Source: Malacoraja senta (taxonomy: Eukaryota). Taken from it: 64,000 bases of DNA. The stretch is taken from positions 4,094,001 to 4,158,000 of the forward strand of contig CM075994.1 in NCBI GenBank assembly GCA_038087875.1, given 5' to 3'. The position numbers and the translations under genes were made by a program. The notes below the pieces were generated by a model. It was not told where the DNA came from. It did no database searches and saw only the letters and a program-made list of their open reading frames with translations. Positions 678 to 63,992 of the stretch are shown here, one piece after another (positions within the stretch are counted from its first letter, which is position 1; each line of letters opens with the position of its first letter).

Positions 678-689
678 GCAAAGAAGAAG
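678..689 (+). CDS. micro-exon 1 (12 nt; xKEE)
   Basis: ttttttgtaactcag|GCAAAGAAGAAG|gtaaat. Confidence 0.65.

Positions 690-63992: not shown

What the first reader, a model, noticed from the sequence alone, without database searches (positions are those of the whole stretch)
678..63992. Hidden gene of at least 34 phase-1 micro-exons encoding a long charged coiled-coil
Seen: 34 exons of only 12, 24, 27 or 36 nt, each with a pyrimidine tract+AG and a GT (one GC) donor, all in one phase. They join without a stop as [317 protein letters not shown]. Coding DNA is about 1.5% of the window. Established: arrays of tiny exons build the coiled-coil tails of butyrophilin/BG-family proteins (21/27-nt exons) and charged regions of triadin. 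Inference: this is either a greatly expanded, lineage-specific member of such a family or an undescribed micro-exon gene. No Ig, TM or B30.2 domain is in the window, so identity is open.
Basis: partly seen in the sequence, partly recalled or inferred. Interest (0 to 1): 0.92.

Follow-up and report, generated by a model that had tools for sequence, protein, structure and literature searches.

The report
Giant micro-exon gene for helical rod
The window lies inside a huge vertebrate gene (or gene cluster) built almost only from tiny 27- and 36-base exons that together spell a long, highly charged helical rod protein, an extreme gene layout whose product and function are still unidentified.

Summary
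All 34 micro-exons are at the stated coordinates: AG acceptors, 33 GT and 1 GC donors, one phase, 951 nt, 316 codons, no stop. They are far beyond chance. Splice-like AG..GT pairs peak at exactly 27 and 36 nt on the + strand only (50 and 29, against about 3.6 for other spacings and 4 and 3 on the - strand). Of 79 such pairs, 75 are open in the phase-1 frame.

The array is much larger than reported. About 145 exons lie between -200 kb and +67.5 kb, more at -250 and -300 kb, and paralogous arrays sit on both strands over about 3 Mb of the same contig. Paralogous exons are better conserved than their introns.

The product is a Glu/Lys/Leu-rich, proline-poor helix with heptad-like 36-nt exons. No Ig, TM-like or B30.2 exon was found in 344 kb, and exon sizes do not fit chicken BG tails. 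Membership of the BG/butyrophilin family is therefore not supported.

No RNA data were available, and the spliced product could not be searched. Identity, gene ends and splicing pattern stay open.

The parts
678..689 (+). micro-exon, 12 nt, phase 1 (KEE)
   Evidence: ctcag|..AAG|gtaaat
1244..1279 (+). micro-exon, 36 nt ([11 protein letters not shown]), heptad type
   Evidence: cttcag|..CAG|gtaaag
2445..2471 (+). micro-exon, 27 nt (EESTRKDE)
   Evidence: ttgcag|..AAG|gtaaaa
3061..3096 (+). micro-exon, 36 nt ([11 protein letters not shown])
   Evidence: ctgtag|..TAG|gtaatt
6921..6947 (+). micro-exon, 27 nt (DKLREKET)
   Evidence: gtgcag|..CAG|gtaaac
7082..7093 (+). micro-exon, 12 nt (SSC)
   Evidence: tctcag|..GCG|gtgagt
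8695..8721 (+). micro-exon, 27 nt (LKLKTKTT)
   Evidence: gtgcag|..CAG|gtgaga
9581..9616 (+). micro-exon, 36 nt ([11 protein letters not shown])
   Evidence: tttcag|..GTG|gtaagg
15501..15527 (+). micro-exon, 27 nt (KKVKQKDK)
   Evidence: taacag|..AAG|gtgaag
15684..15710 (+). micro-exon, 27 nt (IDTHAKDD)
   Evidence: ttgtag|..ACG|gtgagt
15855..15881 (+). micro-exon, 27 nt (SLIREAKT); first of a recurrent three-exon block
   Evidence: atgcag|..CAG|gtaaca
16304..16339 (+). micro-exon, 36 nt ([11 protein letters not shown]); 'type B', middle of the recurrent block
   Evidence: ttgcag|..TTG|gtaatg
16530..16556 (+). micro-exon, 27 nt (ELLTLKNE); last of the recurrent block
   Evidence: tcgcag|..AAG|gtaaaa
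17155..17181 (+). micro-exon, 27 nt (IKRLREKC)
   Evidence: ctctag|..GCG|gtaagt
21414..21437 (+). micro-exon, 24 nt (ISRRSDE)
   Evidence: ttgaag|..AAG|gtaaaa
32114..32140 (+). micro-exon, 27 nt (EQGKEKDG), Gly-containing linker type
   Evidence: attcag|..GAG|gtgagt
32942..32968 (+). micro-exon, 27 nt (LRRPRDKR)
   Evidence: catcag|..GTA|gtgagt; 78% identical to exon 38789 while flanks are at random level
33734..33757 (+). micro-exon, 24 nt (ESGASYE)
   Evidence: ttgcag|..AAG|gtaaaa; paralog of exon 41617
35281..35307 (+). micro-exon, 27 nt (DQSKDKDT)
   Evidence: ttacag|..CAG|gtaacc
36401..36436 (+). micro-exon, 36 nt ([11 protein letters not shown]); the only GC donor
   Evidence: ttccag|..CAG|gcaaga; 78% identical to exon 48292, with 5 of 8 differences at third codon positions
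38059..38085 (+). micro-exon, 27 nt (ARATRSQY)
   Evidence: gattag|..ACG|gtgagt; paralog of exon 48884
38789..38815 (+). micro-exon, 27 nt (LRRLREKC)
   Evidence: ccttag|..GTA|gtaagt
41617..41640 (+). micro-exon, 24 nt (EPGVTDE)
   Evidence: ttatag|..AAG|gtaaag
42649..42675 (+). micro-exon, 27 nt (GRISREQY); an alternative acceptor at 42643 would give 33 nt
   Evidence: ctatag|..ATG|gtgagc
43133..43159 (+). micro-exon, 27 nt (EELRDKEA)
   Evidence: ttgtag|..CAG|gtaatt
48292..48327 (+). micro-exon, 36 nt ([11 protein letters not shown]); start of the second copy of an old multi-exon duplication
   Evidence: ttccag|..GAG|gtcaga
48884..48910 (+). micro-exon, 27 nt (TRATRAQF)
   Evidence: gtttag|..TCG|gtgagc
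50195..50221 (+). micro-exon, 27 nt (LKKSRDKT)
   Evidence: ctccag|..CTA|gtgagt
51694..51720 (+). micro-exon, 27 nt (TRSSLEQC)
   Evidence: gtctag|..GCG|gtgagc
52411..52437 (+). micro-exon, 27 nt (EKLKEKEK)
   Evidence: ttccag|..AAG|gtgagc
53417..53443 (+). micro-exon, 27 nt (IDDYREFC)
   Evidence: tcacag|..GCA|gtgagt
55949..55975 (+). micro-exon, 27 nt (KQARAKEA)
   Evidence: ttccag|..CAG|gtcagt
58910..58945 (+). micro-exon, 36 nt ([11 protein letters not shown])
   Evidence: tttcag|..ATG|gtaagg
63957..63992 (+). micro-exon, 36 nt ([11 protein letters not shown]); the array continues beyond the window end
   Evidence: ttgcag|..TGG|gtaagg; next exons at +64859, +65979 and +67444 in L009
   Evidence: acgcag|..AAG|gtgaaa; above the score threshold; unverified

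Best explanation
The window is an internal slice of a very large protein-coding unit of a jawed vertebrate. That unit is one giant gene or a few tandem genes. Its coding sequence is built almost wholly from symmetric phase-1 micro-exons, mainly 27 and 36 nt, about one per 1-2 kb, separated by introns full of transposons.

Shown:
- The exons are real in the evolutionary sense: strand-specific, of fixed length, fixed phase and open frame.
- They have amino-acid-level conservation patterns and are better conserved than their introns between paralogous copies.
- The array grew by duplication of multi-exon blocks.
- Sister arrays lie on both strands across about 3 Mb of the same 11.9-Mb contig.

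Inferred:
- The exons are spliced in series into a long, proline-poor rod rich in Glu, Lys, Leu and Arg. The 36-nt exons supply heptad (a-d-a) hydrophobic seams. The 27-nt exons supply charged helix, with occasional Gly/Pro linker exons and recurrent exon-final cysteines.
- Each tiny exon can probably be recognised by the spliceosome because it combines near-consensus splice sites with a purine-rich (65% A+G) body. Such GAR/AAR runs act as exonic splicing enhancers (recalled knowledge), and the same codons spell Glu and Lys.
- Every exon is a multiple of three in the same phase, so any subset can be skipped in frame. Rod length could therefore be tuned by cassette splicing, as in tropoelastin.

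The cellular role (structural spacer, or the tail of a larger protein) is not known.
For: Strand, length and frame:
- The spacing peak at exactly 27 and 36 nt is on the + strand only.
- 75 of 79 such segments are open in the phase-1 frame, against 35 and 48 in the other frames.
- Window alone: 36 candidates on + against 4 on -, and a mean of 6.9 in simulations.
- A trained scan over 324 kb gives 139 non-overlapping exons on + against 13 on - at one threshold, and 111 against 6 at a stricter one.

Coding signature:
- In the 36-nt class, information per codon position is 0.35/0.44/0.19. T at the second codon position stands in codons 2, 5 and 9 in 72, 83 and 69% of exons. These positions are hydrophobic in 78, 91 and 78% of exons.

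Conservation:
- Tandem paralogous exon pairs are 56-78% identical while their 60-nt flanks are at random level.
- Five copies of a three-exon block up to 314 kb apart have pN 0.24-0.46 below pS 0.49-0.95 in 10 of 10 pairs.
- An inverted copy 1.3 Mb away keeps four exons in the same order. Its exons are 81% identical (95 of 117) against 66-68% for the alignable intron blocks, and differences by codon position are 7/4/11.

Extent:
- About 145 exons lie between -199.8 kb and +67.5 kb, with more in samples at -250 and -300 kb.
- A motif for one exon type hits contig C18 in 10 of 11 exact matches and 12 of 15 matches with up to 3 mismatches. C18 is 0.6% of the genome.

Product (1,358 conceptual residues):
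- E 14.8%, K 14.4%, L 12.7%, P 0.5%, G 1.9%.
- Heptad coverage is 0.36 against 0.16 in shuffles (maximum 0.28).
- Opposite-charge i,i+3 pairs number 189 against 132 +/- 9.6 in shuffles.
Against: - No transcript evidence of any kind was obtained, so serial splicing, exon usage and even transcription are inferred.
- Neither end of the gene was found. No start codon exon, terminal exon or any ordinary-sized exon was identified in 344 kb.
- One junction in the automatic chain gives a stop. That chain is expected to contain roughly 10% false exons.
- Long-range heptad periodicity in the 316-residue window product is not significant: power 0.78 at period 3.5, against a shuffle maximum of 1.04. The rod may be a mix of short coiled-coil segments and single charged helices.
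- The pN/pS comparison used blocks chosen by peptide likeness, which biases pN downward.
- The spliced product could not be compared with any protein or transcript database, so it may already be annotated under some name.
Confidence: 0.72

Rival explanations
1. The array is the enormously expanded cytoplasmic tail of a BG/butyrophilin-type (Ig-V, TM, heptad micro-exons, with or without B30.2) immune receptor gene.
For: - BG and butyrophilin tails are the best known coiled coils encoded by tiny exons with split codons at both ends (PMC4046983).
- The same contig is rich in B30.2/SPRY exons. Many of the 150 scored hits lie on C18, including a cluster at 9.8-10.8 Mb.
- The one B30.2 exon inspected starts in phase 1, compatible with the micro-exons.
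- The 5' end of the array was never reached, so an upstream Ig/TM part cannot be excluded.
Against: - Exon sizes differ: 27 and 36 nt here, against 21 or 24 nt, one heptad per exon. Only 3 of 145 exons are 21 nt.
- Exon number differs: at least 145 against 13-36.
- Scale differs: at least 267 kb contiguous against compact BG genes.
- No V-set, Ig, SPRY or other host domain was found in 299 ORFs over 344 kb.
- There is no B30.2 exon within 56 kb downstream of the last exon. The +-strand B30.2 exon 398 kb downstream has no 27/36-nt charged exon in the 7 kb before it.
- None of the 88 MHC class I matches is on this contig.
Confidence: 0.1
2. The region is not one giant gene but a tandem and inverted cluster of several separate micro-exon genes. 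Their small first and last exons were missed.
For: - Arrays lie on both strands, so at least three transcription units exist on the contig.
- Gaps of 13-21 kb without predicted exons occur at about -191 to -170 kb and -82 to -69 kb.
- Multi-exon blocks recur.
- One stop-forming junction occurs in the chain.
Against: - No promoter-like CpG island with a plausible start exon, and no convincing terminal exon, was found inside the 324 kb.
- The long gaps coincide with transposon insertions.
- Orientation is uniform over at least 366 kb.
Confidence: 0.3
3. The segments are chance splice-like motifs, or fragments of a repeat or transposon family, or a dead gene relic with no current coding function.
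For: There is no RNA evidence. A few predicted 'exons' clearly sit in LINE fragments: the same [15 protein letters not shown] and RRDA peptides recur at several sites.
Against: - The excess is strand-specific and length-specific, 10-fold or more over controls.
- 75 of 79 frames are open.
- Flanks are unique and unalignable while exons are conserved.
- Splice sites are intact throughout.
- Conservation is codon-position-dependent.
Confidence: 0.03

Closest known systems
Chicken BG genes / butyrophilin cytoplasmic heptad exons (PMC4046983, passages read)
   Same: A predicted alpha-helical coiled coil is encoded by a long run of tiny exons whose first and last codons are split with the neighbours. 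Exon number varies through duplication, and in-frame skipping is possible.
   Different: BG uses 21-nt (sometimes 24-nt) exons, 13-36 per gene, directly behind signal, Ig-V and TM exons in compact genes. Here exons are 27 and 36 nt, at least 145 in a row over at least 267 kb, with no Ig, TM or B30.2 exon in 344 kb sampled.
Tropoelastin genes (bioRxiv 10.1101/2024.12.03.626628, passages read)
   Same: [quoted passage not shown] Coding sequence is a small share of the gene, and some regions arose by replication of exon blocks.
   Different: Elastin exons encode alternating hydrophobic and cross-linking, disordered domains, and coding is about 6% of the gene. Here exons are shorter, coding is 1.5%, and the product is charged and helical.
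Schistosome micro-exon genes (MEGs; PMC10526429, only the abstract start in the listing seen)
   Same: Most of the coding sequence is made of very short symmetric exons separated by much longer introns.
   Different: MEGs are small secreted proteins of flatworms, with exons of 3-81 bp and far fewer exons. They are not charged helical rods and not vertebrate.
Titin PEVK and nebulin super-repeats; triadin luminal KEKE region (recalled, no paper read here)
   Same: Long arrays of small in-frame exons amplified as multi-exon blocks, with differential exon inclusion that tunes the length of an extended protein segment; triadin is Lys/Glu-rich and has very large introns.
   Different: The recalled exon sizes are larger (PEVK about 80 nt). 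Those products are disordered or of another fold, and sit within genes that also have ordinary exons.

Membership tests
BG / butyrophilin family | Tail exons of 21 (sometimes 24) nt, one heptad each | tested here: not met
   Of 145 predicted exons, 75 are 27 nt, 32 are 36 nt, 11 are 24 nt and 3 are 21 nt. The spacing histogram peaks at 27 and 36 nt, not at 21 nt (9 against a background of 3.6). The feature is taken from PMC4046983.
BG / butyrophilin family | Signal, Ig-V-like and TM exons directly upstream of the tail exons | tested here: inconclusive
   No V-set or Ig hit among +-strand ORFs of at least 85-100 aa in the 200 kb contiguous upstream sequence plus two 10-kb samples. However, the 5' end of the array was not reached. 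The genome-wide V-set search was saturated: 150 of 1,517 candidates were scored and none was on C18.
BG / butyrophilin family | 13-36 tail exons in a compact gene | tested here: not met
   About 145 exons over 267 kb contiguous, with further exons at -250 and -300 kb.
BG / butyrophilin family | Split codons at both exon ends (symmetric phase) | tested here: met
   All 34 window exons are phase 1-1 and multiples of 3; 75 of 79 are open in that frame.
Butyrophilin proper | B30.2 (PRY-SPRY) exon as 3' terminal coding exon | tested here: not met
   No SPRY hit in ORFs of at least 100 aa on either strand in the 60 kb downstream of the window. The listed +-strand SPRY exon 398 kb downstream has no 27/36-nt charged exon in the preceding 7 kb. 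Only 150 of 696 SPRY candidates were scored.
Canonical coiled coil | Heptad a/d hydrophobic pattern sustained along the chain | tested here: inconclusive
   The 36-nt exons have hydrophobic residues at positions 2, 5 and 9 in 78, 91 and 78% of cases, and heptad coverage is 0.36 against 0.16 in shuffles. The global 3.5-residue periodicity of the 316-aa window product is not above shuffles. No structure prediction was possible for a spliced product.
Schistosome-type micro-exon genes (MEGs) | Symmetric micro-exons between larger terminal exons; signal peptide; small secreted product | tested here: inconclusive
   The symmetric micro-exon feature is met. Terminal exons and a signal peptide were not found because the gene ends were not reached. 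The product is at least 1,358 residues, not small.
Tropoelastin-like cassette architecture | All borders phase 1:1; hydrophobic and Lys-Ala cross-linking domains | tested here: not met
   The phase feature is met. The composition feature is not: E 14.8%, K 14.4%, L 12.7%, G 1.9%, P 0.5%.

The most novel reading that the evidence does not exclude
The +-strand array from about 3.03 Mb to 4.16 Mb of the contig is a single transcription unit of more than 1 Mb. It would hold several hundred consecutive 27/36-nt symmetric micro-exons, the most micro-exon-rich gene known in any organism. Its exons would be used combinatorially to make helical rods of graded length, within a small lineage-specific family of such genes that has escaped description because short-read aligners and gene predictors cannot chain exons this small.
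Probability: 0.2. Interest if true: 0.9.

Novelty: new variant of a known kind. Interest (0 to 1): 0.72.

Why it matters
Exons of 27-36 nt are below the size at which vertebrate exon definition normally works. They are usually isolated, regulated events. A unit in which well over a hundred of them follow each other, at 1.5% coding density, would be an extreme test case for three questions: how spliceosomes find micro-exons, how exon-block duplication builds fibrous proteins, and how much coding sequence current annotation misses. If the exons are used as cassettes, the locus would offer a natural system for length-tunable helical rods. If the family proves to be linked to the B30.2-rich immune gene region of the same contig, it could bear on the origin of the BG/butyrophilin type of micro-exon tail.

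Tried and rejected
RNA evidence:
- The look-up of sequencing runs listed one holder only, with a DNA-like share of 0.60. No RNA holder was listed.
Nothing was laid.

Database identity of the product:
- An 11-column alignment of 24 exon peptides (A1) was too short for the search for homologous proteins, which needs at least 40 aa.
- The genome search on the window's own genome does not accept alignments.
- No tool here accepts a spliced product, so no homology search, Atlas look-up or structure prediction of the product was done.

Gene ends:
- A scan for terminal exons downstream of +67.5 kb gave nothing convincing.
- A scan for CpG islands and ATG/signal-like first exons over 324 kb gave nothing convincing.

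Pfam on 299 ORFs:
- Only transposon domains were found: RVT_1, Exo_endo_phos, a GDSL/OSK ORF1, DDE_3 with a Sleeping Beauty HTH, and gypsy protease, RNase H and integrase.
- A weak ZIP hit at 20676-21407(-) is a translated (GT)n microsatellite.
- Long open frames in L028 and L025 are translated CT-rich repeats.

Link to B30.2: the one B30.2 exon inspected has no such micro-exons in the 7 kb before it.

Link to the MHC: none of the 88 MHC_I matches is on C18.

Second mapping motif: TNCARGAYGCNGGTRAG hit a dispersed repeat (195 matches, only the first 100 listed) and was useless.

Literature: the full-text searches found no description of a vertebrate coiled-coil gene made of 27/36-nt exons. This covers only the held open-access library.

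Earlier scan notes: nothing on this genome and no look-alike stretch. The word searches returned only unrelated cases.

The contig could therefore not be walked to the ends of the array.

Full report
**1. Observation**

There are 2 of 12 nt, 3 of 24 nt, 20 of 27 nt and 9 of 36 nt.

Joined by coordinates they give 951 nt (1.49% of the window) and 316 codons with no stop, junction codons included. All acceptors are AG behind pyrimidine-rich tracts. 33 donors are GT (31 GTR, 2 GTC) and one is GC.

The product is 18% E, 16.5% K, 11% L, 9.5% R and 8% D, with 2 prolines and 6 cysteines.

**2. Is it more than chance?**

(a) Spacing. A generic splice score, not trained on this locus, was applied to both strands of 324 kb (the window plus flanks).
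- The distance from acceptor-like to donor-like sites has sharp peaks at exactly 27 nt (50 pairs) and 36 nt (29), and a small one at 24 nt (9), on the + strand.
- The mean at other distances is 3.6.
- The - strand has 4, 3 and 3. An earlier version on 184 kb gave 39, 13 and 11 against 2, 3 and 4.

(b) Frame. Of the 79 pairs of 27 or 36 nt, 75 are open in the phase-1 frame, against 35 and 48 in the other frames. Control segments are open in 60-72% of cases in any frame.

There are 36 stop-free phase-1 candidates on +, 4 on -, and a mean of 6.9 (maximum 12) in 20 Markov simulations.

**3. Coding signature and selection**

In the 36-nt class the information content by codon position is 0.35, 0.44 and 0.19. 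T dominates the second position of codons 2, 5 and 9. These positions are hydrophobic in 78, 91 and 78% of exons, which is an a-d-a heptad seam.

The codon split by each intron is mostly G|AA or G|AG. Glu is the junction residue at 73 of 144 junctions and Asp at 15.

Inside the window, an old tandem duplication of a multi-exon block (about 36.4-43.2 kb against 48.3-52.4 kb) is visible only at the exons. Exon pairs are 56-78% identical, whereas their 60-nt flanks are at the random level: gapped identity 0.48-0.63 against 0.46 +/- 0.06 for random 60-mers. BLAST finds no collinear intron similarity, only simple repeats and transposons.

A three-exon block recurs at -298 kb, -193 kb, -15 kb, -2 kb and +16 kb. 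It consists of a 27-nt exon like xKLxExKT, a 36-nt exon like LExxExIRKDV and a 27-nt exon like xLLxLKDx. In all 10 pairwise comparisons pN (0.24-0.46) is below pS (0.49-0.95). The blocks were picked by peptide likeness, which biases pN downward.

A comparison free of that bias comes from an inverted copy 1.3 Mb away (see section 4). There four exons defined by collinearity are 81% identical (95 of 117 nt; differences at codon positions 1/2/3 are 7/4/11). The alignable intron blocks are 66-68% identical.

**4. Extent**

The array does not end at the window.

With a trained scorer, decoy-controlled on the - strand, the counts of non-overlapping exons are 139 against 13 at one threshold and 111 against 6 at a stricter one. 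About 145 exons lie between -199.8 kb and +67.5 kb. They total 4,077 coding nt in 267 kb (1.5%), with a median intron of 964 nt and a range of 80 to 20,815 nt.

Sampled 10-kb pieces still contain such exons at -300 kb (clearly) and at -250 kb (weakly). No clear exon follows +67.5 kb in the next 56 kb.

A 21-place motif for the 3' half of the 'type B' 36-nt exon plus its donor was searched in the 1.94-Gb genome.
- It has 11 exact matches, 10 of them on contig C18, which is 0.6% of the genome. The reversed control pattern has 4 matches.
- With up to 3 mismatches there are 15 matches, 12 of them on C18.
- The C18 matches fall into three strand blocks: + at 3.03-4.37 Mb, - at 4.83-5.59 Mb, and + at 5.70-6.08 Mb.

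A 3-kb piece around the --strand match at 5.425 Mb holds four micro-exons (27, 27, 36 and 27 nt). They are in the same order as those at -199 to -191 kb and have good splice sites.

So there is a family of at least three arrays, related by large direct and inverted duplications. How many transcription units the + block holds is unknown.

**5. Surroundings**

The introns are filled with transposons. These include an LTR/gypsy element with long open frames at 22.8-27.0 kb (which explains the G+C peak), LINE reverse transcriptases, Tc1-like remnants and microsatellites.

Pfam scans of 299 ORFs found only transposon domains and two artefacts. The scans covered the window, the 60 kb downstream on both strands, and the + strand of the 200 kb upstream plus two samples.

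The genome is that of a jawed vertebrate with very many SPRY, V-set and MHC-I exons.

**6. What it is and how it probably works**

Shown: a strand-specific, phase-locked, selectively maintained array of coding micro-exons that grew by block duplication.

Inferred: serial splicing into a long helical product.
- The 1,358 conceptual residues are 14.8% E, 14.4% K, 12.7% L, 0.5% P and 1.9% G.
- Heptad-compatible 21-residue windows cover 36% of the chain, against 16% in shuffles (maximum 28%).
- Opposite-charge pairs are enriched at i,i+3 (189 against 132 +/- 9.6) and at i,i+7.
- The global 3.5-residue periodicity of the window's 316 residues is not significant. I therefore read the product as short coiled-coil segments (the 36-nt exons) joined by charged helix (the 27-nt exons) and occasional Gly/Pro linker exons, rather than one unbroken coiled coil.
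- Several exons end in Cys (EKC, EQC, QEC), which could allow disulfide locking. This is untested.

Recognition of such small exons is plausibly helped by near-consensus splice sites and by exon bodies that are 65% purine. Purine-rich GAR runs are classical exonic splicing enhancers (recalled knowledge). Here the enhancer and the Glu/Lys code would be the same letters.

Because all exons are symmetric, any subset can be skipped in frame, as is documented for tropoelastin (passages read). Whether that happens here is unknown.

**7. Comparison with known systems**

- *Chicken BG and butyrophilin tails* are the nearest in kind. BG exons are 21 or 24 nt, number 13-36, and follow signal, Ig-V and TM exons. 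Here the sizes, number and scale differ, and no Ig, TM or B30.2 exon was found. The B30.2 exon inspected 398 kb downstream starts in phase 1 but is not preceded by such exons within 7 kb. I therefore do not file the locus in that family, although the unreached 5' end leaves about a 10% chance.
- *Tropoelastin* shares the all-phase-1:1 cassette layout but not the composition.
- *Schistosome MEGs* share symmetric micro-exons but are small secreted flatworm proteins (abstract only).
- *Titin PEVK, nebulin and triadin* resemblances are recalled, not tested.

**8. Limits**

No RNA run was available and read laying failed. No tool accepted a spliced protein, so database identity, structure prediction and annotation status are open.

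The literature searches that found no matching description cover only the held open-access library.

**9. Verdict**

It encodes a charged helical rod. BG/butyrophilin membership is not supported, and the identity and function of the product are open.

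Noticed in passing
window 22793-27012 (+): An LTR/gypsy-type retrotransposon with long open frames sits inside an intron of the array: aspartyl protease, reverse transcriptase, RNase H, and integrase zinc-binding and core domains. It accounts for the G+C peak of 0.56 at 24-28 kb.
   Followed up: partly
window 29374-30927 (+), 5364-6257 (+), 18393-18851 (-); L013:3769-7109 (-): LINE copies are present. 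The one in L013 has an ORF1 with a GDSL-esterase/OSK-like domain followed by endonuclease and reverse transcriptase. Short LINE-derived segments (peptides like [11 protein letters not shown]) mimic 36-nt exons and are false positives of the exon scan.
   Followed up: partly
window 20676-21407 (-): A 243-aa open frame with a weak ZIP zinc-transporter Pfam hit is only a translated (GT)n microsatellite (His-Thr run), not a gene.
   Followed up: yes
window 1-46: The window starts in an (ATTCA)n pentanucleotide repeat followed by A/T-rich simple sequence.
   Followed up: no
window 55495-55956 (-): A 153-aa open frame has a sub-threshold match to the TelK-like protelomerase N-terminal domain (27.3 bits against a cut-off of 28). 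It may be a remnant of a tyrosine-recombinase element.
   Followed up: no
L031:7067-7700 (G000:C18:4559067-4559700, +): A PRY-SPRY (B30.2) exon has an acceptor in phase 1. It begins with the usual VTLD..TAHP..L.VSED motif and runs to a stop. No 27/36-nt charged micro-exon lies in the 7 kb upstream.
   Followed up: partly
whole genome G000; contig C18 9.8-10.8 Mb: Immune-type exon families are very large: 696 SPRY candidates, 1,517 V-set candidates and 110 MHC-I candidates. A dense SPRY cluster lies on the same 11.9-Mb contig as the micro-exon arrays. MHC-I matches are mostly on small unplaced contigs and none is on C18.
   Followed up: no
G000:C1:229116207-229350083: The 17-place motif hit an evenly spaced (about 10-20 kb) tandem series of identical matches on contig C1. 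This suggests a large tandem array of a repeat or gene unit unrelated to this finding.
   Followed up: no
L028:8225-9730 and L025:1231-2157 (about -162 kb and -199 kb from the window): Open frames of 502 and 309 codons are translations of CT-rich tandem repeats, not exons.
   Followed up: yes
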